DNA from: a bacterium
GTDB lineage: Bacteria > Patescibacteriota > Patescibacteriia > UBA1558 > UBA10009
NCBI GenBank assembly: GCA_018672055.1
Contig: JABHGM010000001.1
Span: 608,977 to 672,976, forward strand
Direction of reading: 5' to 3'
DNA length: 64,000 nucleotides
How positions within the stretch are numbered: position 1 is the first letter of the stretch; each line of letters begins with the position of its first letter. Shown here one piece after another: positions 5,352 through 24,452 of this stretch. The notes under the pieces were generated by a model. The model searched no databases. It worked only from the letters and a program-made list of their open reading frames with translations, and had not been told where the DNA came from. Made by a program: the position numbers and the translations under genes.

Positions 5352-5756
5352 ATGAAATATTTTATTTCTATTCTAATAGTTATGGTTAACTTATCTACCA
5401 TAAATGCGCAGAAAGAAACCATGACATGCAATGAGATTCTTAGCTTCACTACAATAATTAACAGGACTATTGAGATTGAAAATAATGAATATAAAATGTA
5501 TGCAATCTTGCAAGTTCCTGTTTCTGAAAACGAGTGGCTTCTTGAGCATGGATATGCTTTAGACGAAATTGTTTATGTAAAAGGGTTTGGTAAAAGTGAT
5601 AATTTAACACTAACAAGAGAAATCGCTACAATGGACGCAAGAGGAAATGCAGCTTGTCTCGGATATGAGGAAATAAGAATCAATCAAACCGTGAAAAAGG
5701 ATTCTTGGCAAAAAAATAAAAGAATGATAGATAAATTATTATTTTGGAGAAAATAA
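5352..5756 (+). CDS. Small secreted protein (134 aa) with predicted signal peptide; hypothetical
   Basis: N-terminus MKYFISILIVMVNLSTINAQ resembles a Sec signal peptide. RBS present. Strong terminator immediately downstream. Confidence 0.5.
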   Translation: MKYFISILIVMVNLSTINAQKETMTCNEILSFTTIINRTIEIENNEYKMYAILQVPVSENEWLLEHGYALDEIVYVKGFGKSDNLTLTREIATMDARGNAACLGYEEIRINQTVKKDSWQKNKRMIDKLLFWRK

Positions 5757-6058: not shown

Positions 6059-7861
6059 ATGGAAAATAGTGGTGAAAAATTTTTACACCAAAAAGATCCT
6101 AAATTACACGTTAGTGATTTTGTTGAACACGAGCAATCTAGAAAGAAGAGATCAAGTCAAGAAACATCACAAAAGCCTGTTGATAAGATTTCTGATTGGT
6201 TAGAAGTTATTGAAAAAACTCATATGGGTCATGAAGATGACCCTCGTGTTTTAGAACGTCTTAAAGATTATTATCATAACCAGCATGTTATTAAACCAGA
6301 TGATGTTCCAGAAAGCTATTTTGAAAATCAGAGAAGATTAGCTAGAGAACAAGGGCATGGTGATGTTGAAGTTTCAGATATAGATAAACAACAATTAACT
6401 GAAGCAATTATTTCAGATCAACGTTCTACTCTTGATAATTGGATAAATTATTACACTTCTTCACATTCAGAAAGTTTTCCTACTTGGTCTAAGCATTGGT
6501 CATTTAATGGCATGTTGAAATTATCAAATTATGATAAGGAAAAACATAAATTTAATAAAAGAAGTAAAGATACTGTAGCTCCTTTTCCAGATTTAAATCG
6601 TGAAGCTTTAGCTCATGTAGTTAATGCAATAGTGAAACAAGTTAAAGATGTAAAAGTGAAAGAAGCTAAAGATAAACAAGTTAAAGATGAAGATACACTA
6701 GATATACAGAAGGATCCAGAATTTGAAAAATTACTTCAAGATGCTAATTTTGCTAAACTATATGCTTATGCAATTGAAAAGGTAACTCCTGCTAAGGAAA
6801 GTGAATTATTAAGCACTAAAGGTGAATGGATTAAATATGATAAAGATTCAGATCATATGCCATTAGTTAATTCAATTCAAGGTCATGGTACTGGTTGGTG
6901 TACAGCTGGAGAATCAACAGCTGAAAGTCAGCTAAAAAATGGTGACTTTTTTGTTTATTATTCTCAAGATAAAAAAGGTGATTTTAAGACTCCTAGAGCA
7001 GCTATTAGAATGAATGGTAATGATATAGCTGAAGTTAGAGGTATAGCTCATGAACAAAATTTAGATCCATATATTAATGATACAGTAGACGAAAAATTAA
7101 AAGATTTTCCAAATGGTGAAGCGTATAAAAAGAAAACAGCTGATATGAAAAGATTAACTGAAATTGAAAATATTTTAAAAAAGGGACGAGAATTAGATAA
7201 AAATGATTTGAGATTTTTATATCAAGTTGATGATACAATAGAAGGATTTGGCTATCGTGATGATCCTAGAATAGAAGAAATTATAGAAGAAAGAGATAAA
7301 AAAAGTGATTTATCTCAAATTTTTAATATTGAAAAAAATAAGATTAGTATAACTAAAAATGAAGCGATTAATAACGAAGATATTGTTTATCATTATGGTG
7401 GTCTTTATCTAACCGGCTTAACTTCACTAGAAGGTTTAAAATTACCGGAAACTGTTAATGGTGATTTAGATCTAAGAGGTTTAACTTCAGCAGAAGGTTT
7501 AAGATTGCCAGAAACTGTCAATGGTAATTTAAATCTAAGCGGCTTAACTTCAGCAGAAGGCTTAAAACTACCAGAAACTGTCAATGGTAATTTAAGTCTA
7601 ATCAGCCTAACCTCAGCAGAAGGCTTAAAATTTCCAGAAACTGTCAATGGTAATTTAAATCTAATCAGCTTAACTTCAGCAGATGGTTTAAATCTCCCAG
7701 AAACTGTCAATGGTGGTCTTCATCTAACCGGCTTAACTTCACTAGAAGGCTTAAAACTGCCAGAAACTGTCAATGGTTTTATTTATATAGGAGGCTTAGT
7801 AGAGGCAGAAATATCAGATTTAAAAAAAAGTGATAAAGTTTTCATGGTTAAAGAAGGTTGA
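6059..7861 (+). CDS. Large hypothetical protein (600 aa) with six C-terminal 20-aa leucine-rich (LRR-like) tandem repeats
   Basis: Repeats LTSxEGLKLPETVNGxLxLxG occur six times. The N-terminal ~440 aa are non-repetitive. Confidence 0.6.
   Translation: MENSGEKFLHQKDPKLHVSDFVEHEQSRKKRSSQETSQKPVDKISDWLEVIEKTHMGHEDDPRVLERLKDYYHNQHVIKPDDVPESYFENQRRLAREQGHGDVEVSDIDKQQLTEAIISDQRSTLDNWINYYTSSHSESFPTWSKHWSFNGMLKLSNYDKEKHKFNKRSKDTVAPFPDLNREALAHVVNAIVKQVKDVKVKEAKDKQVKDEDTLDIQKDPEFEKLLQDANFAKLYAYAIEKVTPAKESELLSTKGEWIKYDKDSDHMPLVNSIQGHGTGWCTAGESTAESQLKNGDFFVYYSQDKKGDFKTPRAAIRMNGNDIAEVRGIAHEQNLDPYINDTVDEKLKDFPNGEAYKKKTADMKRLTEIENILKKGRELDKNDLRFLYQVDDTIEGFGYRDDPRIEEIIEERDKKSDLSQIFNIEKNKISITKNEAINNEDIVYHYGGLYLTGLTSLEGLKLPETVNGDLDLRGLTSAEGLRLPETVNGNLNLSGLTSAEGLKLPETVNGNLSLISLTSAEGLKFPETVNGNLNLISLTSADGLNLPETVNGGLHLTGLTSLEGLKLPETVNGFIYIGGLVEAEISDLKKSDKVFMVKEG
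7396..7790 (+). repeat. Six in-frame 60-bp tandem coding repeats with a duplicated lead-in
   Basis: Units start at 7418. The first and sixth units, and the GGTGGTCTT(T/C)ATCTAACCGGC lead-in before them, are near-identical. The antisense ORF 7405..7710 is a repeat shadow. Confidence 0.85.
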
Positions 7862-7904: not shown

Positions 7905-7978
7905 TCGGAGGTCGTCTAACGGTAGGACACCTGGTTTTGGTCCAGGCAATAGGGGTTCGATTCCCTTCCTCCGAGCCA
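7905..7978 (+). tRNA. tRNA-Gln (anticodon UUG), CCA encoded
   Basis: Folded by hand. The 7-bp acceptor stem TCGGAGG/CCTCCGA pairs. D-arm GTCT-AACGGTA-GGAC carries the GG. Anticodon stem CCTGG/CCAGG encloses loop TTTTGGT, giving anticodon TTG. T-arm AGGGG-TTCGATT-CCCTT is followed by discriminator G and CCA. Confidence 0.8.
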
Positions 7979-8615: not shown

Positions 8616-9011
8616 TTACTTTATTACAAATTCAATATTTATCTGGTCCGTAAATTTACCTTTGCTTTCATATAATATTCCAACAGAAATTATTACATTT
8701 TCATTCCAAGCTTTTTCTAAACCTTTAAAAGCTTTATCTGTTATTACAGTATTTGAAAATCCATAATATTCTCTTTGTTCAGTAGTTAGATGAATAGTTA
8801 CATGTCCTTTGTCTATTAACTTGTATACTATATCTAAGTCTATAATAAACTTTTTTAGCATACGAGGTGTAATAACATTTAACATGGTATTGATAGCGTC
8901 TGATTTATCTTTATCTACATCCGTGATTATTTCGCTAATTTTACCAAGCTTTTTTGATCTTTTTTGAATAACATTCATTAAATAATTATTTTGTAATTTA
9001 TCGGTCTCCAT
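8616..9011 (-). CDS. Small-protein family member A (131 aa); function unknown
   Basis: Homologous to the 9786..10196 and 16096..16461 products (shared YY/…LEKAWNENVII block). RBS AAAGAGG present. Confidence 0.6.
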   Translation of the reverse strand: METDKLQNNYLMNVIQKRSKKLGKISEIITDVDKDKSDAINTMLNVITPRMLKKFIIDLDIVYKLIDKGHVTIHLTTEQREYYGFSNTVITDKAFKGLEKAWNENVIISVGILYESKGKFTDQINIEFVIK

Positions 9012-9157: not shown

Positions 9158-9571
9158 TTAGCCTCTTAACAATGAGCTAAATTCAATTTCACCATAACGT
9201 GAGTTTGTTTCGTATCGAAGCTTTGCTTCAACATGTGTGTCCAATGAATTTTTATCACGTTTTTTACCTGTTGAAATATTGCCATGCACTAAGATGTACC
9301 ATACACCTTTGCCCATGTTTGTTAACGTGATTACGGATTTAACTATGAGAAAGTACTTTTTATGTAAATCTACAATACCAAGTTTTTCCATCTCCACCCC
9401 AGGTCCAAAATTTTCTGTATATGTGGTAACTGGATCACCGGGAGTGAATTTAAACCATAATGGATCTACAAATATGATTTTATTTTGATGAATAAAGGCT
9501 GCGCAGATCTCAGATCTACGTGGGCCATTATCAATTTTTGGCATAACATGTGGTGTTCTTGGTGTTGTCAT
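9158..9571 (-). CDS. Hypothetical protein (137 aa) with visibly higher GC than its surroundings. The track ORF extends to 9610, but the RBS supports a start at 9571.
   Basis: AAAGGAG lies 8 nt before the ATG giving MTTPRTPHV…; the upstream MCPYKR extension has no RBS. Codons are richer in G/C than neighbouring genes. No domain recognised. Confidence 0.5.
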   Translation of the reverse strand: MTTPRTPHVMPKIDNGPRRSEICAAFIHQNKIIFVDPLWFKFTPGDPVTTYTENFGPGVEMEKLGIVDLHKKYFLIVKSVITLTNMGKGVWYILVHGNISTGKKRDKNSLDTHVEAKLRYETNSRYGEIEFSSLLRG

Positions 9572-9692
9572 ACAACAACTCCTTTCTTTTTTGCGCTTAT
9601 AAGGGCACATTCCTTGTTGCTTTGTTCTTAATGAGCCACCTACCCATACAGGCAGGGATTTTGTTAACCAATACCTTATCGATTAACAGGTT

Positions 9693-9785: not shown

Positions 9786-10196
9786 TTATTCCTTGATTTC
9801 TAGAAATACTAATTCGAATTTAATTTCTAACTTTTTCTCGTCTCTAGAAAGGTTTATGGGGAAGAATGTAAGATTAATTATTACGTTTCCATTCCATTTT
9901 TTTTCTAATAATTCAAATTTATTTTGAGTAAGGAATTTATCTTCAAAATAATATTTTCCTATATCATTACCTTCTAATACTATAGAAATTTTTTCTTTAT
10001 ATAGTAACTTCTCTAGTATACTATAGTCTTGAATAAAATCTTTTAGGTTATCTGGTGTCTTATGCAGAAAAGTTCTAATTACGTTAGATTCATATTCATC
10101 TCCCATTTTAATCATTTTTTTAACACTTTCAAGTATTTCTGATCTGGCTAGAATGGCTTCTAACAAATGTTTTTCTTTTACATCACCTATAGCCAT
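9786..10196 (-). CDS. Small-protein family member B (136 aa)
   Basis: Homologous to 8616..9011 and 16096..16461. RBS AAAGGAG present. Confidence 0.6.
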   Translation of the reverse strand: MAIGDVKEKHLLEAILARSEILESVKKMIKMGDEYESNVIRTFLHKTPDNLKDFIQDYSILEKLLYKEKISIVLEGNDIGKYYFEDKFLTQNKFELLEKKWNGNVIINLTFFPINLSRDEKKLEIKFELVFLEIKE

Positions 10197-12777: not shown

Positions 12778-12852
12778 AATTAATTAGAATATATATAATA
12801 TATCACTAATTAGCGATATTTATATATATTTTTTTAATAAAGTATACATACT

Positions 12853-12888
12853 TGACAATATTCTATAAATATGCTATTATAGTATAAT
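12853..12888 (+). promoter_or_regulatory. Strong promoter driving the GC-rich module
   Basis: TTGACA, 17 bp, TATTAT, with a second TATAAT 2 bp later. The ~120-nt leader carries hairpin TTACTGTAA-TGTT-TACAGTAA at 12923-12946. Confidence 0.55.
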
Positions 12889-12986
12889 GTTTTTTGAAAA
12901 TTAAATAATTTAGAAATCAATGGTTACTGTAATGTTTACAGTAAAATAAGTAGTTTATTAGAAAGTAAGAAACACGTAAAACGTTT

Positions 12987-13039
12987 ATCCAAAGGAGATA
13001 AAGATGAGTAAATATCCAAAGGAGATAAAGATGAGTAAA
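12987..13039 (+). repeat. 27-bp tandem duplication spanning the RBS and start codon
   Basis: ATCCAAAGGAGATAAAGATGAGTAAA occurs twice (12987-13012 and 13014-13039), separated by one T. It creates two in-frame ATGs 27 nt apart. Confidence 0.85.
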
Positions 13040-13432
13040 AAAAATGAATACCGTGATGGTGCAACAATAGTAGCTAAAGAGTCAGCTTGGACTTTTTGGA
13101 GATTTTTACCACTATTACTTCTTGTTATTGTAGTAGTACTTCTGGTCGTTTGGAGTCTGAAAAGTACTGGTATCATCGGAAAGGATATTGAACGTGAAGT
13201 CGTTCAACACAGCCAGCAGTATGTTGAGTCAAAACAGGCTAAATTGCAGAATCTGTATACCAAGTATGTTGAATTACAAACAAAGGCAACAGAGGCTGAA
13301 TTTGCCGGTGTAACAGAACTGGTTGATGTATATTATGCACAGCAGAAAGCAATTTTGGTTCAGATGCGCCGAGAGGTAACAAACATTCCCTCTCATCAGG
13401 TTCCACCAGAAGTTCAGAAGCTCTTACAATAA
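13031..13432 (+). CDS. Membrane-anchored coiled-coil protein, hypothetical. The alternative start at 13004 is created by the duplication.
   Basis: Single TM helix (FLPLLLLVIVVVLLVVW) then a helical, Q/E-rich region. Noticeably higher GC than the flanking genes. Confidence 0.55.
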   Translation: MSKKNEYRDGATIVAKESAWTFWRFLPLLLLVIVVVLLVVWSLKSTGIIGKDIEREVVQHSQQYVESKQAKLQNLYTKYVELQTKATEAEFAGVTELVDVYYAQQKAILVQMRREVTNIPSHQVPPEVQKLLQ

Positions 13433-13459
13433 AAAACTCAAATGATAAGGAGAAATGAA

Positions 13460-14083
13460 ATGAAGAAATGTAGATTATACTTTATGGGTTTACTGATTTT
13501 TGCAGTAATGATACTAACAGGCTGTAATGCATGTGCAAATAACAGTTCTGAGGCAAAAGATCAGGCAACGGTTGCTAAACAGCAGGGGATTTATCAAGAT
13601 GTGCAACCAGTGCATATCTATGATTATTCTATTCCCAGAGATATATATCAGCAGATATATGATGTTACAACGACTCAAGTTGTTGCAACATATTCCGTGA
13701 TTGAATCAATTACTGGATTAACTCGGTACGAATGTCCTTCTATGGGTTATGCTATTCCAGCTGATGTTAGTTTAACGAATCCTCTCCAGGGTACTTATAA
13801 CTTTGATAGTGTTGGAGTAGATGAGTTTTCTCAGGTAATTGAACAGGCAGAGCCTAATGGTCTATTCAGTTCAAAGAATACTGATGCCACATGGGTAATG
13901 TGTGTAGAGTTGGGAAGCGGAGAGGTGTATCCTATTTATGTAGAACATAAAGTAATGACATTTCCATTTATTATGGAAAAAAATAAGAAAGATCAATGGG
14001 TTCGAGCTGATAATAAACCAATCGCTTTCAAAATCGAAATCAAAAATGGTAATCAAGGAGGCAAACCTCCTAAGGTAAATTAA
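13460..14083 (+). CDS. Predicted lipoprotein, hypothetical. The track ORF starts at 13442.
   Basis: AAGGAGA sits 6 nt before the ATG at 13460. Signal plus lipobox MKKCRLYFMGLLIFAVMILTGC. GC-richer composition. Confidence 0.6.
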   Translation: MKKCRLYFMGLLIFAVMILTGCNACANNSSEAKDQATVAKQQGIYQDVQPVHIYDYSIPRDIYQQIYDVTTTQVVATYSVIESITGLTRYECPSMGYAIPADVSLTNPLQGTYNFDSVGVDEFSQVIEQAEPNGLFSSKNTDATWVMCVELGSGEVYPIYVEHKVMTFPFIMEKNKKDQWVRADNKPIAFKIEIKNGNQGGKPPKVN

Positions 14084-14105
14084 ATTTACTGACCATAAAT
14101 AATAA

Positions 14106-14146
14106 AACCCGGCATGTATTCTGTATGTGTCGGGTTATTTTTTTAA
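14106..14146 (+). terminator. Rho-independent terminator between the convergent 13460-14083 gene and typA
   Basis: AACCCGGCAT…GTGTCGGGTT hairpin followed by ATTTTTTTT. Confidence 0.6.
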
Positions 14147-16095: not shown

Positions 16096-16461
16096 TTAAA
16101 CTAAGGCAACTTTGATACTTATAACTATCCATTCATATGGCACTTGCGTAAAAGTAAATGAAATATTGTTATCCCAAGCTTTTGTTAGTTTTTCAAAACT
16201 GGCTTTTGTTGTCCGATGATCCTTAAAGACAGAATTTCTATTTTTTTCCTTAAGAATGATAGATAACTCTATTTTGCCTTTTTTTATTAAAGCCTCTATT
16301 AAGCCTGATGCTTTAATATAGTGGTGGAGCTCTTTGGGCGCAGCTTCAATTAACTTACGTATAACATCATTTTCTTTTTCTTTAAGGTCTTGAAACTTTT
16401 TTTCATATTCAGTTTCTAACTCCAACTTGGCAGTTATTAGATTAGATAACAGATTTGCCAT
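16096..16461 (-). CDS. Small-protein family member C (121 aa)
   Basis: Shares the LIxKGKIxLSIIL…FEKLTKAWDNN block with members A and B. Upstream TTGACAAAATA element. Confidence 0.55.
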   Translation of the reverse strand: MANLLSNLITAKLELETEYEKKFQDLKEKENDVIRKLIEAAPKELHHYIKASGLIEALIKKGKIELSIILKEKNRNSVFKDHRTTKASFEKLTKAWDNNISFTFTQVPYEWIVISIKVALV

Positions 16462-16559: not shown

Positions 16560-16874
16560 TTATTCTTCTTCAGGTTTTTCAATTTCTATTTTTTTAAATG
16601 GGTCTGTTATTTCTGAAACATCAATAATTGGGGAGTAATTGTTATTTAATTTTTCTATAACATTTTCAGTTAAATTTATATCAATTTTATTAAGTGATAC
16701 TTTATCAATATATTGTAGAATTAATTTACTATTATCTTGAATTACGTGATATTGTCTAAATATTAAAAAGAGCGAGGAAGAAATAATTAAAAGCGTTACT
16801 ATTAGTATTACTAAAGTAATGTTAATTTTAGGTAATTTAATTTTTAAATTTATTTTTTTCATATAGTTAACCAA
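16560..16874 (-). CDS. Small single-pass membrane protein at the distal end of the pilMNO operon (PilP-position)
   Basis: N-terminal TM helix VILIVTLLIISSSLFLIF. Overlaps the pilO stop. No lipobox. Confidence 0.4.
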   Translation of the reverse strand: MVNYMKKINLKIKLPKINITLVILIVTLLIISSSLFLIFRQYHVIQDNSKLILQYIDKVSLNKIDINLTENVIEKLNNNYSPIIDVSEITDPFKKIEIEKPEEE

Positions 16875-17383
16875 TATGTGTAACCTAGAATATCAGCTGA
16901 AAGTGAAGTATTATTTTGCCTTATATTAATATTTTGAATTGTTAAATTATAGTTTATGCTAGATATTTCGGATAAATATTTAAGTAAATCATCAAAATCA
17001 CCATCTATTTTAAAGTTAAAAGGAATTCTTATTATATTAGGTCTAAATTCATCTTTTTGTAAATCTAGAGTTAAAGTTTGCTCTAAATTATATTTTTCAG
17101 CTATTGTTTCTAATTGTTCAATTAATTCTAATTCTTGACCTTCAGATAATAGTATTTCTTCTAACGTTGGAATTTTTTCATTTAATTCATCATATTGCAT
17201 AGCTAATTGATTAAAGTCTTCACCTGTTTTAAATTTAATTTCAAGTTGACTAGCTTCTGATTTAAATTGATTATGTACAGTGTTTAGATTACTTGAATAA
17301 GGGAAAATAAAGAATAATAAGACAATAGTTAGAATAACTAGTTGAATCAAATATTTAGTAATTTGTCCTGTATTTAATTTCAT
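16859..17383 (-). CDS. pilO: Type IV pilus assembly protein PilO-like
   Basis: Position after pilN. N-terminal TM followed by coiled-coil and a C-terminal beta region typical of PilO. Confidence 0.55.
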   Translation of the reverse strand: MKLNTGQITKYLIQLVILTIVLLFFIFPYSSNLNTVHNQFKSEASQLEIKFKTGEDFNQLAMQYDELNEKIPTLEEILLSEGQELELIEQLETIAEKYNLEQTLTLDLQKDEFRPNIIRIPFNFKIDGDFDDLLKYLSEISSINYNLTIQNINIRQNNTSLSADILGYTYWLTI

Positions 17384-17907
17384 AGTCTGTTAAAAAATCC
17401 ACTTATTTCAAAAGTAATATTTTCTCTTTGTAATATATCTGTAATAGGTGTATTTAGATCAAAGAATATTTCAGAATTTTCTAAGTTATCTTTAAATAAT
17501 AAATATTCTTCTCTAGATTCTGCGTGACCCTGCATAGTAAACTGATTTGTTTTAAGCTGAGCATTTATTTGAATAATTAAAACATTATTTGGCACTAAGC
17601 TAGCTAGCTCTTTTAAAAAGCCAGGCCAATCATTAAATGATTTTTGAATACTGTCTATTGTAGTAATTTCTTCATTTAAATAATTTATCTTATCAGTTAA
17701 TAATTTATTACTTGCAGCTACAGCACCTTTTTTTTGTTCTACGGTTCTACTTAAATTAGCTATGGTTTGATTAATTGGAATTAAACTAATAGCAATTAAA
17801 ATACTAGCAATAATTAAAAGGTTTAAGAAATTTTCTATATATAAATATACATTCCTTACTTTAAGTAATTTTTGTTGTTTAGGTGATATTAAATTTAAAT
17901 GGATCAT
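17380..17907 (-). CDS. pilN: Type IV pilus assembly protein PilN-like
   Basis: Short cytoplasmic N-terminus, single TM, periplasmic coiled-coil. Translationally coupled to pilM and pilO. Confidence 0.55.
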   Translation of the reverse strand: MIHLNLISPKQQKLLKVRNVYLYIENFLNLLIIASILIAISLIPINQTIANLSRTVEQKKGAVAASNKLLTDKINYLNEEITTIDSIQKSFNDWPGFLKELASLVPNNVLIIQINAQLKTNQFTMQGHAESREEYLLFKDNLENSEIFFDLNTPITDILQRENITFEISGFFNRL

Positions 17908-17910
17908 ATT

Positions 17911-18978
17911 TTAAGTATTTAAATTCCTAAGTGCTAAACCTATAGCTGTAGCGTAAGAAGCAACTTGATTTTCTGGTAACTTAACTTTATCTAAAGATAC
18001 ATTAGTTAAAGGATTTGTTAAATGTACTTTCATTTTAGTTTCTTTTGTTAAAAATGTATCTAAGTTTGGCATTTGTGATCCACCGCCAGTTAAGTATAGT
18101 TTTTTAATAGATTTTTGTGTTTTAAAATGCTCTTGATAGAAATAATTAGCTTCCCTTATTTTTTTAGCTATTTTTTTAATTTCAGGAGCTATTAATTTTT
18201 CTGAATAACCTTCTGCTTTAGATGAGTTTAAACCTAGGCTACGTTTTACTTTTTCTGCTTCTTTTGAAGTAATCTTTAATTGTTTTCTAATTATCTCAGT
18301 TAAACCATCACTAGAAAATGATAGTGATATAGTAAATGGAATAACATTATGAGCATAGATAAATAGACCGGTTCTTCTAGCACCAAGATCTAAAACCATA
18401 ACAGGTTCGGTTAATTTTTCTTTAAAAGAAAATATACTTCTAGCTAGTGTTACTGCTTCAATTTCTAATGAGCAGGGGACAAGATCAGAATTAGTTAGTA
18501 CTTCTTGATAATTATCAACTATTTCTTTAGGGCAAACACCGATTAAAACTTGTGTTTTATCTCTAGGATCTATATATTGCCAGTCTAGATATACTTCATT
18601 AATAGAATAGGGAATATGTTTTTTAGCTTCTTGAACTATTTCTTCTAATATATTTTTACCTTCAGGGTAATCTAAATTAATTAATTTTATAAATGTTTTT
18701 TGTTCTGGTAAACAAACGTTTGTTACTTTGCTAATTAATTTTTGTCCTGTTACATTATTAATTAACTTATCAATTATAACTTCTGCTTTTTTAGAATCTA
18801 CAATTTTTCCTTCTTTTAAAACACCTTTAGGTACTGCTTGATAACTAAAACTAACAAGTTTAATTTTCTTGTTTATTTTTTTTAATTGGACCAATCTAAA
18901 GGCTCTTTCACTAATATCTAATCCAAATGAATTATTTTTCATGCAAAGTGGTATCATATTTAATATTCTTCTTCCCAA
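17911..18978 (-). CDS. pilM: Type IV pilus assembly ATPase-fold protein PilM
   Basis: Actin-like/FtsA-like fold motifs (GLDISERAFRLV…, LDLGARRTGL, YLTGGGSQMP). Confidence 0.8.
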   Translation of the reverse strand: MGRRILNMIPLCMKNNSFGLDISERAFRLVQLKKINKKIKLVSFSYQAVPKGVLKEGKIVDSKKAEVIIDKLINNVTGQKLISKVTNVCLPEQKTFIKLINLDYPEGKNILEEIVQEAKKHIPYSINEVYLDWQYIDPRDKTQVLIGVCPKEIVDNYQEVLTNSDLVPCSLEIEAVTLARSIFSFKEKLTEPVMVLDLGARRTGLFIYAHNVIPFTISLSFSSDGLTEIIRKQLKITSKEAEKVKRSLGLNSSKAEGYSEKLIAPEIKKIAKKIREANYFYQEHFKTQKSIKKLYLTGGGSQMPNLDTFLTKETKMKVHLTNPLTNVSLDKVKLPENQVASYATAIGLALRNLNT

Positions 18979-20165
18979 TGTTCAATATTAATTATTGGAG
19001 ATGTTTCTGGGGTACCTAATCCTCTACTTATTATAGCTTGATCATAGTTAATATTCAATGGTGCCCAGAAGTCATAAACACTTAAATTTCTTGTATAAAG
19101 TCCTCCATTTAATCCATAGCCAGTAAATATTGAAGATATTATTATTTCATCTGCTGCGTAAACTAAACCATCAATTTGAATGTCGTCAGAGAAGAAACCA
19201 AAAACTATTTTTCTCTTTGTTATGATCCCTGAAGGATCACTACCATTTGAATTAACAAATAAATCAGGATTACTCACCCAGAATGGCCAGAAACTAGTTC
19301 CTAGATTTATATTACCATCAGCTACTAACATACCATTTACAGTTAAATTATGTCCTTTTTTAATATCAATATTACCAGTAACATAGGTTATTCCGTCGAT
19401 TATCAAATTTGATGTTCCATCAAGTAAGTCATCAAATTCAGAACTTGTATATATATTGTCTGCTAAATTTTTATATGAATTTGGATCAGCTGAATCAAAA
19501 TCAATTCCAGGCATAGCAATAGTTTCTGGAGCAGGTGGATAATTATCAGCATTAAGGGTAGCTGCCTCTAAACTTGACGTCCAAGATACATTAATTTGAT
19601 CAACGGCAGAAGCATCACCAGCAATATCTAAAATGCTATAGAAGTTTGCTTCAATATCATTATTTGTAAATATACTTCCAGTTTGGACTTCTAGATTAGC
19701 TCCAAAGTAAGTCATAGAATCATCAGTATACATAACAACATCATCTATTGCTGATTCACTAGTTGCTTGAAACACTTTTGTTTTTACGATTCTTTGAGTA
19801 CTGGCTCTGTCTGTAGTAATTACAGCGACAGAGCTAATTTCTGCTTCTGCTAAACCTGTATTATCTATACTTACTAAGTAATATGAGTTAGGGATAAATG
19901 GATTATTTCTTAAAAGAGATTCTGACCAAGTTGGATTTGTTTTAAAACTTGTTTGCCATGTAGGATCATTTTTTATTTTCCATAATGCTTCATTAATTCC
20001 TGCTTCTGCTAAATAATATGTTTCAGTTGCTAAGTTTTGACTATGAGCTAATTTTGAATCAGTGACTATGAATGAAAGAAAATAAAAAACCATTAAAAAA
20101 AGTATAGCTATTATTATGGTAATAGTTGCTAAAACATAGCCTGATTGTTTTTTCATTTTATTCAT
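18960..20165 (-). CDS. PilX-N-terminal-domain-like pilus protein (401 aa)
   Basis: N-terminus KKQSGYVLATITIIIAILFLMV matches the QxG(F/Y/V)xL + hydrophobic pattern of PilX_N proteins. Sits between the prepilins and pilM. Confidence 0.5.
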   Translation of the reverse strand: MNKMKKQSGYVLATITIIIAILFLMVFYFLSFIVTDSKLAHSQNLATETYYLAEAGINEALWKIKNDPTWQTSFKTNPTWSESLLRNNPFIPNSYYLVSIDNTGLAEAEISSVAVITTDRASTQRIVKTKVFQATSESAIDDVVMYTDDSMTYFGANLEVQTGSIFTNNDIEANFYSILDIAGDASAVDQINVSWTSSLEAATLNADNYPPAPETIAMPGIDFDSADPNSYKNLADNIYTSSEFDDLLDGTSNLIIDGITYVTGNIDIKKGHNLTVNGMLVADGNINLGTSFWPFWVSNPDLFVNSNGSDPSGIITKRKIVFGFFSDDIQIDGLVYAADEIIISSIFTGYGLNGGLYTRNLSVYDFWAPLNINYDQAIISRGLGTPETSPIINIEHWEEEY

Positions 20166-20167
20166 AA

Positions 20168-20749
20168 CTATTCTCTTGAATTTCTACCCCAAACACTACT
20201 ATATATATGTTCATTAATATTATTTTTAGTAAGCCATACTTCAATATTAGTAAAGTCTTCACCATAGAAAGCTATATTTGAAATATATTCTGCAATTATT
20301 TTATTATCAGTAACAATAGATTCTGGTGGCTCTAAAAATTGATCAACAGCGTCCCAGTAAACAAATGTACCAGGTTCCTCAGAAAAATAATAAGTTATCC
20401 GTTGTCTATATAGATCAGTGCCACTTAAATAATATCTTAAGTATTGTATATCAGGTACACCATGGCCATCTTGGAATTGAAATTCCGTTGGCGGATCAAA
20501 ACCTTCAACTCCTTTACTTTCAGGTAGGGGTGTTACAATATCTTGAGATTGCCTTATTTCACGAGTAATTCTATCTATTATTATCCTGCCATTTTGCAAA
20601 AGCTCCATTTTTGTATTACTGGTATTAAATGATTTTTGTGAGAGTAAATACAGATCATAGACTATGAAAAATATAACAATACTTAAAGAAACAGTTAACA
20701 TGACTTCAATTAAAGTAAATCCTATATTTTTCTTAGACTTTTTTATCAT
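20168..20749 (-). CDS. Prepilin-type (type IV) minor pilin
   Basis: Class III signal KKNIGFTLIEVMLTVSLSIVIF (G-F-T-L-I-E). Confidence 0.7.
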   Translation of the reverse strand: MIKKSKKNIGFTLIEVMLTVSLSIVIFFIVYDLYLLSQKSFNTSNTKMELLQNGRIIIDRITREIRQSQDIVTPLPESKGVEGFDPPTEFQFQDGHGVPDIQYLRYYLSGTDLYRQRITYYFSEEPGTFVYWDAVDQFLEPPESIVTDNKIIAEYISNIAFYGEDFTNIEVWLTKNNINEHIYSSVWGRNSRE

Positions 20750-21165
20750 AAATGCGAATTAAGTGTTCTTATAGTTAAGGTAGTATTTTCACCAGTCATT
20801 ATATTTATCCAAACAATATCTGTTTCAATTAGTTTTAAACCAAGGTCTGTTTGAGTTTCATTTAAGCTACTATCTAAGTATTTTACTCTGGTAATTCTTT
20901 TAAATTCACTAAAATCATTATCAATAGTTGATAATGATTCCTCTATAACTGTACCTACATTAATTTGTTCATATCCTTGGCTAATTAACTCTTCTATCTT
21001 TGCTTGAGCAAAGTTAACAGCTAGTGTTTTTTGTTCTGATTGTTTGGTAGCATTCATACCAAAAGGAAATAACCTAACAATACTAAAAACAGCTACAGAT
21101 AATATACTGAGAGCTACTAAAACTTCTAATAAAGAAAATCCCTTATTGTTCTTGCCAATTAACAT
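20746..21165 (-). CDS. Prepilin-type minor pilin
   Basis: NNKGFSLLEVLVALSILSVAVF N-terminus. Confidence 0.7.
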   Translation of the reverse strand: MLIGKNNKGFSLLEVLVALSILSVAVFSIVRLFPFGMNATKQSEQKTLAVNFAQAKIEELISQGYEQINVGTVIEESLSTIDNDFSEFKRITRVKYLDSSLNETQTDLGLKLIETDIVWINIMTGENTTLTIRTLNSHL

Positions 21166-21589
21166 AGCCTGATGGTTTTATATCTACTAAAGTTGTTATT
21201 TCTGCATGTAAGTGAGTTATGAAAACTTGTCCTGCGTAATCTACTCCTCCGCCAAAGTTAAATGAAACTTCATTATCTTGGATACCAGTGTTACTAGCAA
21301 AGTAAACTGTTTCATCTAATGCATATGTTTCTATAGTTACGTCAGGATCTCCAATTTTTACTAAAGAGTAAGAATTATTTAGCGGTGTAATTATAATCGC
21401 ATATTTAATTTGTTCAGTTACTGTATATTGTTGAGCTATTTTTAAATGAGAAATAAACTGTTTAGTACTACTTTTTATTTCTAAATTCTGAGTATAGTTT
21501 TTAAATGTAGGAAATGAAATTAAAGAAACCGTTGCTATAACAATTATAACGGCGATTATCTCAGCTAAAGTGAAGCCTTTTTTATTCAT
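21143..21589 (-). CDS. Prepilin-type pilin (GspH/FimT-like)
   Basis: MNKKGFTLAEIIAVIIVIATVSLISF N-terminus. Confidence 0.7.
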   Translation of the reverse strand: MNKKGFTLAEIIAVIIVIATVSLISFPTFKNYTQNLEIKSSTKQFISHLKIAQQYTVTEQIKYAIIITPLNNSYSLVKIGDPDVTIETYALDETVYFASNTGIQDNEVSFNFGGGVDYAGQVFITHLHAEITTLVDIKPSGYVNWQEQ

Positions 21590-21590
21590 A

Positions 21591-22727
21591 TTATTGAAAT
21601 TGTTCAGTCAAATTATACATTGGCATTATAATAGCAAGAGCCATAAAGGCTACAGCACCACCTAGAAGTAACATTAAAATTGGTTCAATTATAGAAGGTA
21701 GAGATTTCATAATGCGATCTATTTCATCTTCATAGAATGAAGCAAGTTCACCCAATATTTCATCTATTTTTCCTGTTTGTTCACCTGTTGATATCATTTG
21801 AATAATAACTGGTGGAAATAGTATTTCATATTCTGATAAAGCATCTGATATATTAACTCCTTCTTTAAGCTTTATAGCTGATTCCTGCATAGCTTTCTTA
21901 TAATGATAATTAGAGAGTGTTTCTGAGGTAATTTCAAATGTTTTAACAATTGGAATATCTGTTTTAATTAAAGAGCTAAGAGTTCTAGTAAATTTAGCTA
22001 GATTAATTTTTTTTATAATAGCTCCAAAGACAGGTATTCTAAGTAAAACGTAATGAAATATTTTTTTACCTTTTTTAGATTTAATAAATGATATAAATAA
22101 GCTAATGAAACCAATAAAGCCTAGAGCTGTTATTAAACCATTATTTACAATAGCGTCAGAAAAGTTTATTAAAAACCTTGTAGCAAAAGGAAGTTCAGCG
22201 TTCATTTGGTCAAAAATGGCAGTAATTTTAGGAATAACAAAAACTAGCATACCAATACCAATTCCAGTCATGGCAATAATAACAATTATTGGATAAGTCA
22301 TTGCTGATCTAATCCTACTTTTTAATTCATTTGAAGTTTTTATTTGAATATATATTTGATCTAAGACTTCATCTAAGTGCCCTGAAATTTCTCCAGATTC
22401 AATCATACTGACAATTAGGTTATTGAAGATGCCTTTATTTTTTTTTAAACTTTCTGTCAAAGAAACGCCTTTTTCTGTATCTTTGTAAAGATTAAATAAT
22501 AATTTTTTAAATTTTTTATTTTTAGTTTGTTGAGATAGTGTTTTTAATGCTTTATCTAAAGGTAAGCCACTTTTAACCATTACTTTAAGATTTTGCATGA
22601 AAAATTGCTTATCTTTATTTGAGATAGTTGATATTTCTGATAATGAGTTATATAGCTTTTTTAGAAAAGGTGTTTTTTTACCAGTTTTCTTTTCTTTTTT
22701 TTCAACTTGTTGTAAATCTATTGCCAT
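21591..22727 (-). CDS. pilC: Type IV pilus inner-membrane platform protein PilC (GspF family)
   Basis: Duplicated GspF-type domains, three TM segments, and position after pilB. Confidence 0.85.
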   Translation of the reverse strand: MAIDLQQVEKKEKKTGKKTPFLKKLYNSLSEISTISNKDKQFFMQNLKVMVKSGLPLDKALKTLSQQTKNKKFKKLLFNLYKDTEKGVSLTESLKKNKGIFNNLIVSMIESGEISGHLDEVLDQIYIQIKTSNELKSRIRSAMTYPIIVIIAMTGIGIGMLVFVIPKITAIFDQMNAELPFATRFLINFSDAIVNNGLITALGFIGFISLFISFIKSKKGKKIFHYVLLRIPVFGAIIKKINLAKFTRTLSSLIKTDIPIVKTFEITSETLSNYHYKKAMQESAIKLKEGVNISDALSEYEILFPPVIIQMISTGEQTGKIDEILGELASFYEDEIDRIMKSLPSIIEPILMLLLGGAVAFMALAIIMPMYNLTEQFQ

Positions 22728-24452
22728 TTATTCTTGAGTTACTCTTAAGACTTCTTCAATAGCTGTAATGCCTTGAAGGGCTTTCATGAAGCCGTCTTGA
22801 GTTAGAGTTAAATTATTTTCTTTAAGATGTTGTTTTTCAATTTCTTCAGCTGTTGCTTTATGAGCAATTAAATCTGAAATAGCTAATGTATTTTCCATTA
22901 CTTCATATATTCCTGTTCTACCTTTGTAACCTGAATCATTACATTGCTTACAACCTTTTCCTTTATAGAATAATACTTTTTCAAATGAATTATTCTTTTT
23001 AGATAGCAGACCTTGTTCAGTTAAAAATACTTGCATTGATTCTAAATCGAAATGTCTTTTTAACTGTTCAACTACTTTTTTATCTAAGTTATAGCTAATA
23101 ATACAATTTTTACATATTTTTCTAACTAGTCTTTGAGCTAAAACACAATTTAGAGTAGTACTTACTAAAAATGGTTGAATACCCATATTTAACATTCTTT
23201 GAGGTGTCGAAGCTACGTCATTAGTATGTAAGGTAGATAATACTAAATGACCTGTCATCGATGCATTAATGGCAATTTCTGCTGTTTCTTTATCTCTAAT
23301 TTCACCAACCATAATAATATCTGGATCTTGTCTTAAAAGAGATCTGAGCCCTGCTGCAAAAGTAAAATCAATCTTAGGATTTACTTGACTTTGATTAATT
23401 CTTGGCATTCTGTATTCAATGGGGTCTTCAACAGAAGAAATATTTACTTCAGGCTTATTCAAAACATTCATAATGGTATAGAGAGTAGTAGTCTTACCAG
23501 AACCAGTAGGACCAGTTACTAGTATCATGCCATGAGGCTTTTCAATATTAGTTTTTAAAATTTTAAATGGTTTTTCTTGGAGTCCAAGTTGTTCTAAATT
23601 TAAAGCTTTAACTGATTCATTAAGCAATCTCATAACAACTTTTTCACCATCAAATACTGGAATTATTGAAACTCTAAAAGCAACTTTATATTGTTGATTA
23701 GCTATTTTAAACCTACCGTCTTGAGGTAATCTATGTTCATCAAGTTTTAAGTTAGATAGTACTTTAATTCTAGCTACAATACCTGATCTAACAGATTTAG
23801 GTAAATTCATAACGTCTCTTAACATACCATCAACTCTATATCTAACAACAACATCTTTTTCAGTTGGTTCAATATGAATATCTGAAGCTTCTTCAAAAAT
23901 TGCATATTCTAGTAAAGTATCAACAATTCTAATAACAGGTAAGTCTTGAGCCAACTCTTTTAAATTCTTTTTACCTTTTTCTGATTCTTTTTCATCAGTA
24001 ATATTTTTAAATTCAGCTTCTATACTTTGATGATATTGTTTTATACCTTCTTTAAATGATTTAGGAGTTGTTAAGTGTAATTTTAAATTTGTTTCCAATT
24101 TCTTTTTAAGAAACTCAATTGTTTGTAAATCAGTGGGATCAGTAGTAGCAATACTAATACCCATAGCGTCTTTATTAAATGCTAATATTTCATGGGTTTG
24201 AGCAATTGGTTCGGGTATTAAAAATAAGACATCTTTTCTAATAGTCTCATTCTTTAGTTTAATTAGTGGAAGTTTATAGAAAGCAGCTAATTGTGAATAC
24301 AAGCTATCTATATTTACTAAATCTTTTTCAATAATATAATCAAAAAGTTTTTCTTTTTCTTTCTTAGCTTCATTCTTAGCTTTTTCTAAAGCTTCTTTTT
24401 CAATTAAATCATTTTTTAGTAAAATGTTTTCTAATTTTTTATCTTCTATCAT
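22728..24452 (-). CDS. pilB: Type IV pilus assembly ATPase PilB (GspE family)
   Basis: Walker A GPTGSGKTTT, Asp box, His box, and C-terminal tetracysteine CKNC…CKQC. Confidence 0.9.
   Translation of the reverse strand: MIEDKKLENILLKNDLIEKEALEKAKNEAKKEKEKLFDYIIEKDLVNIDSLYSQLAAFYKLPLIKLKNETIRKDVLFLIPEPIAQTHEILAFNKDAMGISIATTDPTDLQTIEFLKKKLETNLKLHLTTPKSFKEGIKQYHQSIEAEFKNITDEKESEKGKKNLKELAQDLPVIRIVDTLLEYAIFEEASDIHIEPTEKDVVVRYRVDGMLRDVMNLPKSVRSGIVARIKVLSNLKLDEHRLPQDGRFKIANQQYKVAFRVSIIPVFDGEKVVMRLLNESVKALNLEQLGLQEKPFKILKTNIEKPHGMILVTGPTGSGKTTTLYTIMNVLNKPEVNISSVEDPIEYRMPRINQSQVNPKIDFTFAAGLRSLLRQDPDIIMVGEIRDKETAEIAINASMTGHLVLSTLHTNDVASTPQRMLNMGIQPFLVSTTLNCVLAQRLVRKICKNCIISYNLDKKVVEQLKRHFDLESMQVFLTEQGLLSKKNNSFEKVLFYKGKGCKQCNDSGYKGRTGIYEVMENTLAISDLIAHKATAEEIEKQHLKENNLTLTQDGFMKALQGITAIEEVLRVTQE

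What the first reader, a model, noticed from the sequence alone, without database searches (positions are those of the whole stretch)
12853..14146. GC-richer two-gene module (membrane-anchored coiled-coil protein plus lipoprotein) with its own strong promoter and structured leader
From about 13040 to 14100 the sequence is noticeably richer in G/C. Examples are GTTCAACACAGCCAGCAGTATGTTGAG and CAGAGGCTGAATTTGCCGGTGTAACAGAACTGGTTGATG. The rest of the window is very AT-rich. The module encodes a single-pass membrane protein with a long helical ectodomain and a lipobox lipoprotein (LTGC). It is driven by a near-consensus promoter (TTGACA, 17 bp, TATTAT, then TATAAT). The leader contains a 9-bp stem hairpin (TTACTGTAA-TGTT-TACAGTAA). 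The module ends in a strong terminator. The compositional contrast suggests recent horizontal acquisition of an envelope-associated pair.
Basis: seen in the sequence. Interest (0 to 1): 0.55.

Follow-up and report, generated by a model that had tools for sequence, protein, structure and literature searches.

The report
Phage-type membrane-protein/lipoprotein cassette in a bacterial chromosome
The GC-rich island is real: it is a horizontally acquired two-gene cassette (membrane-anchored helical protein plus lipoprotein) from a large uncharacterised family that is always inherited as a pair, is at home in very different phages, and has been picked up repeatedly by small-genome bacteria; it probably acts at the cell surface, perhaps against incoming phages.

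Summary
Bases 13031-14083 are 37.0% GC against 28.5% for the window, the richest 1.1-kb stretch. The two ORFs rank 1st and 4th of 59 for atypical codon use (GC3 0.31 and 0.26 against 0.15). The promoter, hairpin, lipobox and terminator are all where stated. The leader as a whole folds no better than shuffled sequence. The terminator is shared with the convergent typA gene.

ORF A is a single-pass membrane protein with a helical hairpin. ORF B is a lipoprotein. Together they form a strictly conserved cassette: A lies directly upstream of B in 43 of 46 non-redundant loci, and no third gene is conserved. The B family has 694 clusters at 50% identity. It has no Pfam family, no functional name and no PDB match by fold or sequence.

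The pair occurs in T5-like, N4-like and T4-like phages, jumbo phages and the temperate Clostridium phage phi3626 (Gp44/Gp45). There it sits among early or replication genes and matches local GC. In cellular genomes, mostly Patescibacteria, it is a GC-richer stand-alone unit. Horizontal acquisition is supported. "Recent" is not: the cassette is fixed in the population and only about 70% identical in DNA to its nearest relatives. Function is inferred: a surface complex on the cytoplasmic membrane, most plausibly superinfection exclusion.

The parts
12852..12880 (+). Sigma-70-type promoter: TTGACA, 17-nt spacer, TGC-TATTAT (extended -10)
   Evidence: 11 of 12 matches, TG present; sequence.
12883..12888 (+). 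Second -10-like hexamer, TATAAT
   Evidence: Read from the sequence. It is too far from the TTGACA to pair with it.
12924..12944 (+). Perfect palindrome or hairpin in the 5' leader (9-bp stem, 3-nt loop)
   Evidence: Unique in the window. Not exceptional in number or energy.
12986..13039 (+). Perfect 27-bp tandem duplication (TATCCAAAGGAGATAAAGATGAGTAAA, two copies) that duplicates the Shine-Dalgarno sequence, the ATG and the first codons of ORF A
   Evidence: Present in all three population contigs checked. Homologues start at the position of the second ATG.
13004..13432 (+). ORF A, 142 aa (133 aa from the second ATG at 13031): bitopic membrane protein with a helical-hairpin domain after the membrane span
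13103..13159 (+). Transmembrane segment of A (FLPLLLLVIVVVLLVVWSL)
   Evidence: Hydropathy scan.
13448..13453 (+). Shine-Dalgarno sequence (AAGGAG) of ORF B, 6 nt upstream of the ATG at 13460
   Evidence: Sequence.
13460..14083 (+). ORF B, 207 aa: lipoprotein of the phrog_24725 / phi3626 Gp45 family, with two helices and a beta-sheet core
13514..13525 (+). Lipobox L-T-G-C (Cys22 is the acylated residue)
   Evidence: Cys conserved in at least 90% of relatives.
14106..14146 (.). Intrinsic terminator hairpin plus T-run, lying between the convergent genes B and typA; probably bidirectional
   Evidence: flanking sequence.

Best explanation
The island is a horizontally acquired copy of a phage-type two-gene cassette, inserted between a housekeeping HD-domain gene and typA in a small (~0.95 Mb), AT-rich bacterium that makes peptidoglycan and type IV pili.

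Shown:
- A and B are compositional outliers in the window.
- A and B are always adjacent, in the order A then B, and are often translationally coupled.
- The pair moves as a unit among unrelated phages, prophages and cellular genomes.
- In phages it sits among early or replication genes. In cellular genomes it is typically a stand-alone unit followed by a terminator.
- In the window it has a near-consensus sigma-70 promoter.

Inferred:
- A inserts with its N-terminus in the cytoplasm and its helical hairpin outside.
- B is lipid-anchored, or in some relatives signal-peptide-secreted or pilin-type anchored, on the same outer face of the cytoplasmic membrane.
- The two form a complex there.
- The complex acts as a superinfection-exclusion-type barrier that interferes with genome entry of incoming phages at the cytoplasmic membrane. 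The host keeps it as a constitutively expressed immunity module.

My confidence by step: about 0.85 for a horizontally acquired phage-type cassette; about 0.6 for a surface complex on the cytoplasmic membrane; about 0.3 for exclusion of phage entry as the actual function.
For: Composition and codon use.

Strict pairing:
- A profile of A finds a hit directly upstream of B in 43 of 46 non-redundant loci, and no third gene is conserved.
- The gap between the A stop and the B start is at most 64 nt in 40 of 43 loci, and 14 loci have a 4-nt ATGA overlap.
- The pairwise distance matrices of A and B correlate (r = 0.70).

Phage residence:
- Vibrio phages PG11 (Schitoviridae) and Cody-like phages (Demerecviridae), cyanophage S-SRM01 and Clostridium phage phi3626 Gp44/Gp45.
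- 30 IMG/VR contigs of 13-470 kb.
- A Dethiobacter prophage, where the pair lies between a RecD2-like helicase and a DNA methylase.
- A phage contig where it lies between DnaB and SSB.
- A mobile element where it lies next to resolvase, D5 primase and integrase genes.

Cellular copies lie among housekeeping genes. They are GC-richer than their flanks and are followed by terminators in 10 of 15 loci, against 3 of 26 viral contigs.

Location outside the cytoplasmic membrane:
- The lipobox Cys is conserved in at least 90% of relatives.
- Some relatives instead carry a signal-peptidase-I signal or a prepilin-type leader.
- Hosts include monoderms, diderms and Patescibacteria.

The conserved residues of B are mostly Pro, Gly and Thr in low-confidence loops, which suggests a binding surface rather than a catalytic site.

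Background on early-expressed envelope exclusion proteins (T5 Llp; membrane-anchored blockers of DNA entry): PMC8829019.
Against: - There is no experimental or homology-based link to any known exclusion protein.
- PADLOC, Pfam and NCBIfam give nothing. The PHROG families that match are of unknown function.
- The topology of A rests on a weak positive-inside bias: 12 loci favour N-in, 4 are neutral and 3 favour the opposite.
- No A-B interface could be modelled. The fusion model has pTM 0.43.
- B is unusually well conserved (40% identity between a Vibrio phage and this bacterium). That is atypical for exclusion proteins, which usually track phage-specific targets.
- In temperate phage phi3626 the pair sits in the replication module, not the lysogeny module.
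- No sister genome without the cassette was found, so the insertion itself is inferred from composition and distribution only.
Confidence: 0.5

Rival explanations
1. The cassette carries out a different phage early function at the envelope, and the host retained it for that property. Candidates are a lysis-timing or superinfection sensor (as with T4 RI), masking or disabling of a surface structure such as type IV pili, membrane remodelling, or membrane anchoring of replication.
For: - The pair lies next to replication and recombination genes in several phages.
- A gives a weak hit to the phi29 p16.7-like replication-organiser PHROG (E = 0.028).
- One B relative, and one further representative, carry a prepilin-type leader.
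- The window has a type IV pilus cluster 2.7 kb away.
Against: - The p16.7 hit is not significant, and B is exported, which does not fit a cytoplasmic replication role.
- The pilin-type leader is seen in only 2 of about 160 sequences.
- Pilus genes are not neighbours in any other locus.
Confidence: 0.25
2. The pair is a neutral or decaying passenger left from an old phage or mobile-element insertion. It has no function in the present host.
For: - There are indel variants in the population: a 15-aa deletion between 17-nt direct repeats (P0122), a deletion inside the membrane span (P0123), and N-terminally shortened B calls in three assemblies (P0167).
- No mobility genes remain nearby.
Against: - Both ORFs are intact, with all family-invariant residues, in the great majority of contigs (85 and 87 contigs).
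- A near-consensus promoter, good Shine-Dalgarno sequences and a terminator are retained.
- The same stand-alone arrangement recurs in many Patescibacteria.
Confidence: 0.1
3. The genes are native and vertically inherited. Their higher GC reflects amino-acid composition or expression-linked codon bias, not transfer.
For: - GC1 of A (0.545) is the highest in the window, so part of the excess comes from amino-acid composition.
- Even in phages the cassette is slightly GC-richer than its flanks (+0.02).
- The module is fixed in the population.
Against: - GC3 and synonymous codon choice are also outliers.
- The family is scattered across phages and unrelated phyla, with no conserved chromosomal context.
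- Other cellular copies show the same or a larger GC excess.
Confidence: 0.08
4. The pair is a spanin-like lysis module (an Rz-type inner-membrane subunit plus an Rz1-type lipoprotein).
For: - The gene order and architecture look alike: a bitopic helical protein followed by a lipoprotein.
- There are faint PHROG and Pfam hits to spanin models (E = 0.17-0.25; O_Spanin_T7 at E = 0.0015 for one relative).
Against: - B is a conserved globular beta-rich domain of about 150 aa, not a short proline-rich peptide.
- No holin or endolysin is a conserved neighbour.
- The pair occurs in phages of monoderm hosts and in Patescibacteria, which have no outer membrane to span.
Confidence: 0.03

Closest known systems
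Clostridium phage phi3626 Gp44 / Gp45 (phrog_26268 / phrog_24725), and the equivalent pairs in Vibrio phages PG11 and Cody (gp163/gp164) and in cyanophage S-SRM01
   Same: Homologous two-gene cassette with the same order. A is a bitopic protein with the R..(V/F)..S.QY motif after the membrane span. B is an exported protein with the QA(E/D)PNG(L)F...T..TW motif.
   Different: These pairs are 25-44% identical to the window's B. They lie inside phage early or replication regions without their own terminator. Some have B with a signal-peptidase-I signal instead of a lipobox. All are annotated 'hypothetical' or 'unknown function'.
Phage superinfection-exclusion envelope proteins (T5 Llp lipoprotein, T4 Imm and Sp, streptococcal Ltp, lactococcal Sie2009)
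   Same: These are small phage-encoded lipoproteins or bitopic membrane proteins. They are expressed early or from a prophage and act at the envelope against incoming phages (PMC8829019; the named examples beyond Llp are from my own knowledge).
   Different: No sequence or fold similarity was detected. The known examples are single proteins tuned to one receptor or phage. Here an obligate pair is conserved across phages of diderm, monoderm and Patescibacteria hosts. Function was not tested.
Two-component spanins (Rz / Rz1)
   Same: Architecture and gene order: an N-terminal membrane span with a helical external domain, then a lipoprotein.
   Different: B is large, globular and conserved. The pair is not in lysis cassettes. 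It is present where no outer membrane exists.
Morons (autonomous promoter-gene-terminator units of deviant composition in prophages; concept recalled from my own knowledge)
   Same: The unit has a near-consensus promoter, is followed by a terminator, and has GC content unlike its surroundings.
   Different: It lies between chromosomal housekeeping genes with no prophage around it. The terminator is shared with typA.

Membership tests
phrog_24725 (phi3626 Gp45-type) plus its partner family phrog_26268 (Gp44-type) | Significant profile match of B to phrog_24725 | tested here: met
   E = 3.4e-12 for window B. phi3626 Gp45 gives 6.9e-135 and S-SRM01 B gives 4.6e-30 to the same PHROG.
phrog_24725 (phi3626 Gp45-type) plus its partner family phrog_26268 (Gp44-type) | An A-type bitopic helical protein encoded immediately upstream | tested here: met
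   43 of 46 non-redundant loci, including the window. Window A itself does not reach significance against phrog_26268. It is linked to the phage A proteins through my own A profile (L001 E = 1e-4, L002 E = 6e-6).
Two-component spanin (Rz/Rz1) | Inner-membrane subunit with an N-terminal membrane span and a helical external domain | tested here: met
Two-component spanin (Rz/Rz1) | Outer-membrane subunit is a short, proline-rich, largely unstructured lipoprotein | tested here: not met
   B is 207 aa, with a confidently predicted beta-sheet core (pLDDT 92-96) and conserved motifs.
Two-component spanin (Rz/Rz1) | Encoded in a lysis cassette with holin and endolysin; restricted to phages of hosts with an outer membrane | tested here: not met
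   No conserved neighbour of any kind. The pair lies in early or replication modules. It is present in Clostridium and Dethiobacter phages and in Patescibacteria.
Superinfection-exclusion system (a functional class) | Phage-encoded envelope protein or proteins, expressed early or from a resident element | tested here: inconclusive
   Phage residence and envelope location are supported. Early expression is inferred from gene position only. No expression data were available.
Superinfection-exclusion system (a functional class) | Expression blocks adsorption or genome entry of a second phage | not testable with these tools
   Needs plaque, adsorption and DNA-entry assays.
Moron-type autonomous unit | Own promoter and terminator, and nucleotide composition unlike the surroundings | tested here: met
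   The terminator is shared with the convergent typA.
Moron-type autonomous unit | Located between two genes of a prophage | tested here: not met
   The flanks are DEAD-box helicase, an HD_3 protein, typA and type IV pilus genes. There are no phage genes.
Known anti-phage defence systems (PADLOC-DB 2.0) | Match of either protein to a defence-system model | tested here: not met
   No hits at E <= 1.

The most novel reading that the evidence does not exclude
A-B is an unrecognised, ancient, two-component phage module built on a fold with no solved relative. It works at the outer face of the cytoplasmic membrane whatever the envelope type, for example by blocking genome entry of rival phages. Patescibacteria and other small-genome bacteria have repeatedly domesticated it as a stand-alone, constitutively expressed immunity cassette.
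Probability: 0.25. Interest if true: 0.7.

Novelty: new variant of a known kind. Interest (0 to 1): 0.5.

Why it matters
Most genes in phage early regions have no known role, and Patescibacteria have few recognised anti-phage systems. This pair is conserved from T5-like, N4-like and T4-like phages, jumbo phages and Clostridium phages through to Patescibacteria chromosomes, and it is always inherited as a unit. That points to a general, envelope-independent step of phage-host interaction that has not been described. The cassette is small (about 1 kb) and has cultivable phage representatives (phi3626, the Vibrio phage Cody group, PG11, S-SRM01), so the hypothesis can be tested directly. For the window itself, the result explains the compositional anomaly. 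It also shows a chromosomal gene pair of phage origin that has been kept, with a strong promoter, in a streamlined genome.

Tried and rejected
1. Family searches. Pfam, NCBIfam and PADLOC scans of A and B found nothing above threshold. The weak hits (TssO, DUF2140, HpsJ, Lysis_col) reflect membrane-span or coiled-coil composition. A Pfam scan of 114 diverse B relatives found no domain on the conserved core.

2. PDB by sequence profile. Nothing was found.

3. Structure.
- AlphaFold of B alone gave pLDDT 69.5.
- AlphaFold of the natural A-B fusion P0137 with 129 sequences gave pLDDT 77.8 and a confident B core.
- Foldseek against the PDB gave no hit below E = 0.4 for either model.
- BFVD gave one unnamed viral protein.

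4. Modelling the A-B interface. MAFFT misaligned A homologues onto the B region whenever more than about 6 B sequences were present. The fusion was therefore folded with no A homologues in the alignment, and the domain arrangement is not trustworthy (pTM 0.43).

5. Sister-genome presence/absence test.
- The metagenome scan with the HD protein found only the same population, plus relatives of at most 39% identity without HD-typA synteny.
- The species-representative genome collection did not return the window's own locus.

6. Hairpin as an operator of a regulon. The palindrome has no second copy in the window at up to 3 mismatches. Its resemblance to an SOS box (CTG-N9-CAG) was recalled from memory only, and I do not put it forward as a finding.

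7. Leader as a known RNA element. No Rfam match.

8. Plasmids. No B homologue in PLSDB.

9. Literature. No paper was found on phrog_24725, on phi3626 Gp44/45 function, or on such a cassette in Patescibacteria.

10. Flanking repeats as insertion scars. Only low-complexity AT-rich matches were found.
Full report
**1. The observation**

The window is 28.5% GC, and bases 13031-14083 are 37.0% GC. All of the highest-ranking 1.1-kb windows lie over this segment.

The excess is not only due to amino-acid composition:
- GC3 is 0.306 for ORF A and 0.260 for ORF B, against 0.150 +/- 0.042 for the other 57 long ORFs.
- Under the window's own synonymous codon usage, A is the most atypical ORF of 59 and B the fourth (z = -4.2 and -2.4).

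- Promoter: TTGACA, a 17-nt spacer, then TGC-TATTAT at 12852-12880, with 11 of 12 matches and an extended -10. A further TATAAT lies at 12883-12888.
- Hairpin: a perfect 9-bp stem at 12924-12944.
- Lipobox: L-T-G-C.
- Terminator: a 14-pair hairpin at 14106-14136 followed by a T-run.

Three qualifications apply:
- The leader as a whole folds no better than shuffled sequence (z = -0.62). It matches no Rfam family. Its hairpin is one of about 15 perfect 9-bp hairpins in the window.
- The terminator lies 25 nt past the stop of the convergent typA gene and is T-rich on both sides. It is probably a shared, bidirectional terminator.
- A perfect 27-bp tandem duplication at 12986-13039 duplicates the Shine-Dalgarno sequence, the ATG and the first codons of A. 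Homologues begin at the position of the second ATG. The duplication is therefore a young, lineage-specific event. It is present in all three population contigs examined.

**2. What the genes are**

ORF A (142 aa, or 133 aa from the second start) has a short N-terminal segment and one hydrophobic span. A conserved stretch follows directly (ER-VV-HSQQY-E), and the rest is helical.

ORF B (207 aa, starting at 13460 behind AAGGAG) is a lipoprotein. It carries strongly conserved motifs: QQxxY, SIPRD, DxSLTNP, EQAEPNGLFSSKNTDxTW and EHK.

Neither protein matches Pfam, NCBIfam or PADLOC. B matches phrog_24725, whose function is unknown (E = 3.4e-12).

The B family is large:
- A profile search found 2,766 clusters at 90% identity.
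- An exhaustive HMMER search of 1.84 billion representatives found 694 clusters at 50% identity. All are single-domain proteins of about 180-220 aa.
- None of 114 diverse members has a Pfam domain on the conserved core.

AlphaFold gave a confident beta-sheet core for B (pLDDT 92-96) preceded by two helices. The conserved loops had low confidence. The A part of a natural A-B fusion protein (P0137) was predicted as a membrane helix that continues into a long helix, followed by a return helix. Foldseek found no PDB relative at E < 0.4. Sequence profiles found none either.

**3. An obligate pair that travels as a unit**

I used profiles of A and B on every locus fetched: 16 species-representative genomes, 30 IMG/VR viral contigs, reference phages, and contigs from protein look-ups.
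- A lies immediately upstream of B in 43 of 46 non-redundant loci.
- Clustering of about 940 neighbouring ORFs found no third conserved gene.
- The A-B gap is at most 64 nt in 40 of 43 loci, and 14 loci have the ATGA overlap typical of translational coupling.
- The pairwise distances of A and B correlate (r = 0.70).

Variants of the arrangement exist: B-A-B (L004), A-B-B (L020, L047) and one A-B fusion (P0137).

**4. Where it lives**

In phages:
- Vibrio phage PG11 (Schitoviridae) carries the pair downstream of an RNA polymerase gene and upstream of a DNA polymerase gene, on the same strand.
- About 20 Cody-like Vibrio phages (Demerecviridae) carry it.
- The T4-like cyanophage S-SRM01 carries it.
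- The temperate Clostridium perfringens phage phi3626 carries it as Gp44/Gp45, downstream of the SSB gene and next to a recombinase gene.
- Among metagenomic viral contigs it occurs in genomes from 13 kb to 470 kb.
- It lies next to DnaB and SSB in one phage contig.
- In a Dethiobacter prophage it lies between a RecD2-like helicase and a DNA methylase.
- In one element it lies beside resolvase, D5-primase and integrase genes.

It is absent from the plasmid collection.

In cellular genomes it is found mostly in Patescibacteria: Moranii-, Buchanan-, Kuenen-, Shapiro-, Ryan-, Uhr- and Saccharibacteria. Single cases occur in Izemoplasma, Gammaproteobacteria and Planctomycetales MAGs. Where I examined the surroundings, the pair sits among housekeeping genes (GreA, UvrD, deoxynucleoside kinase, ClpB).

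Two quantitative contrasts separate the settings:
- The cassette is GC-richer than its 12-kb flanks by a median of 0.068 in 15 cellular loci (0.086 in the window). In 26 viral contigs the median is 0.022 (Mann-Whitney p = 0.002).
- A terminator-like hairpin follows B in 10 of 15 cellular loci but in only 3 of 26 viral contigs.

The cassette therefore looks at home in phages and imported in cells.

**5. The window's copy**

The flanks are a DEAD-box helicase, an HD_3 protein, typA, a type IV pilus cluster (PilB, C, M, N, O and pilins), peptidoglycan synthesis genes, SecA and SecDF. This is the repertoire of a small-genome, walled, piliated bacterium. Public records name it only '[bacterium]', with contigs of about 0.95 Mb. 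A Patescibacteria-like identity is my inference.

No mobility gene or credible insertion scar flanks the module.

The module is fixed. All 24 contigs read that carry the identical typA have the same arrangement. A and B were recorded on 85 and 87 contigs, against 63 for typA.

The nearest relatives are a 120-kb viral contig (L025), an uncultured bacterium (L005) and the mobile element L004.
- B is 65-70% identical to them in protein, and the cassette DNA is 69-71% identical.
- Their GC3 is 0.33-0.42.
- At conserved amino-acid sites, identical codons barely exceed what host codon usage predicts (74 against 62.7 for L025).

The window's GC3 is thus intermediate between these relatives and the host. 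That fits an import that is partly ameliorated. It is older than the sampled population but not old enough to have equilibrated.

I could not find a sister genome with an empty HD-typA junction. The insertion is therefore inferred, not observed.

**6. How it most likely works**

Shown: B carries an export signal in essentially all relatives. The signal is usually a lipobox. It is sometimes a signal-peptidase-I signal (Cody, PG11). In L037 and one further representative it is a prepilin-type leader (KG|VTLIEVM). The anchor is interchangeable, but the location outside the cytoplasmic membrane is constant.

The hosts include diderms, monoderms and Patescibacteria. The common site of action must therefore be the cytoplasmic membrane or the space just outside it, not an outer membrane.

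Inferred:
- A is oriented N-in, C-out. The positive-inside bias favours this in 12 loci, is neutral in 4 and is opposed in 3.
- The hairpin of A pairs with B.
- The residues of B conserved across 114 diverse members are mainly Pro, Gly and Thr in flexible loops, with no obvious catalytic set. This points to a binding surface.

Phages place the pair among early genes. Cells keep it as a stand-alone unit, and in the window that unit has a near-consensus promoter. The best-fitting role is therefore a superinfection-exclusion-type block on incoming phages at the cytoplasmic membrane. This is analogous to early-expressed envelope proteins such as T5 Llp and to membrane-anchored blockers of DNA entry (PMC8829019).

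I rate this functional step at about 0.3. Other envelope-directed early functions are a serious rival at 0.25. A spanin role is contradicted by three tested features: B's size and fold, the absence of a lysis-gene context, and the monoderm hosts.

**7. Comparison with what is known, and novelty**

By homology, the pair belongs to the phi3626 Gp44/Gp45 group (phrog_26268 and phrog_24725). That group has been catalogued but never characterised. No paper on it was found.

By architecture it resembles spanins. By setting it resembles morons and exclusion genes. It meets some but not all defining features of each (see the membership table).

I rate it a new variant of a known kind: a phage-derived accessory envelope cassette. 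The added value is threefold: the island is one copy of a widespread, strictly paired, phage-borne module of unknown function; cells acquire it repeatedly; and it can be tested in cultivable phages.

Interest is 0.5. The cassette is not ordinary, but nothing here yet overturns an expectation or settles an open question.

Noticed in passing
window 12986-13039: Perfect 27-bp tandem duplication of the ribosome-binding site, the ATG and the first three codons of ORF A. It gives two in-frame starts, each with its own Shine-Dalgarno sequence. It is present in all three population contigs checked. Homologues start at the second ATG.
   Followed up: partly
window 13218-13279; proteins P0122, P0123, P0167: Population variants of the cassette. 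P0122 has a 15-aa deletion in A, exactly between two 17-nt direct repeats 45 nt apart. P0123 has a 15-aa deletion inside the membrane span of A. P0167 is an N-terminally shortened B call in three assemblies. These are either real indel polymorphism or assembly and gene-calling artefacts.
   Followed up: partly
L037 4548-5201: In one 66%-GC viral contig the B homologue has a canonical prepilin-type (class III) leader, MSPFHNRKG|VTLIEVMIVV, in place of the lipobox. One further family representative hits Pfam N_methyl (E = 1.1e-5).
   Followed up: partly
L053 6909-8294: A 461-aa ORF fuses a VWA/metallopeptidase-like protein to the C-terminal half of B. A MoxR-like AAA ATPase gene lies just upstream. 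In Vibrio phage PG11 an AAA ATPase and a 'metallopeptidase domain protein' lie about 1 kb downstream of the A-B pair.
   Followed up: no
protein P0137; L004 10001-11699; L020 5538-7224; L047 7597-9236: Rearranged forms of the cassette: a natural A-B fusion protein (371 aa), a B-A-B arrangement next to resolvase, D5-primase and integrase genes, and two A-B-B arrangements.
   Followed up: partly
window 8616-9011, 9786-10196, 16096-16461 (all minus strand): Three paralogous small ORFs (131, 136 and 121 aa; BLASTP E = 1e-14 and 1e-5) with no Pfam family. One lies directly beyond typA, next to the pilus cluster. The 121-aa copy has raised GC3 (0.26).
   Followed up: partly
window 9158-9610 (minus) and 5352-5756 (plus): Two further small ORFs without Pfam matches and with GC3 well above the window mean (0.285 and 0.267). 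By codon atypicality the first ranks 2nd of 59 and the second 7th. The first lies in a block of unknown genes just downstream of tRNA-Gln (7905-7978), possibly another imported patch.
   Followed up: no
window 6059-7861: A 600-aa protein whose C-terminal third consists of tandem ~19-aa units (LTSAEGLKLPETVNGNLNL). It is leucine-rich-repeat-like and has no Pfam hit at E <= 0.01.
   Followed up: no
window 16859-24452 (minus strand): Type IV pilus gene cluster: PilO, PilN, PilM, an unassigned 401-aa protein, at least two pilin-like proteins with G|FTLIE-type leaders, PilC (T2SSF) and PilB (T2SSE). It starts 2.7 kb from the cassette. No link to the cassette was found in other loci.
   Followed up: partly
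window 37251-38954 and 42837-44504: A SecD with an inserted PPIC-type rotamase domain, and a TrwB/HerA-like (coupling-protein-type) ATPase with a treble-clef zinc finger. Both are unusual domain combinations seen while mapping the host context.
   Followed up: no
window 12800-12819: A 20-bp near-perfect palindrome (ATATCACTAATTAGCGATAT) in the AT-rich spacer between the HD gene and the cassette promoter. It could be a protein-binding site or the end of the upstream transcription unit.
   Followed up: no
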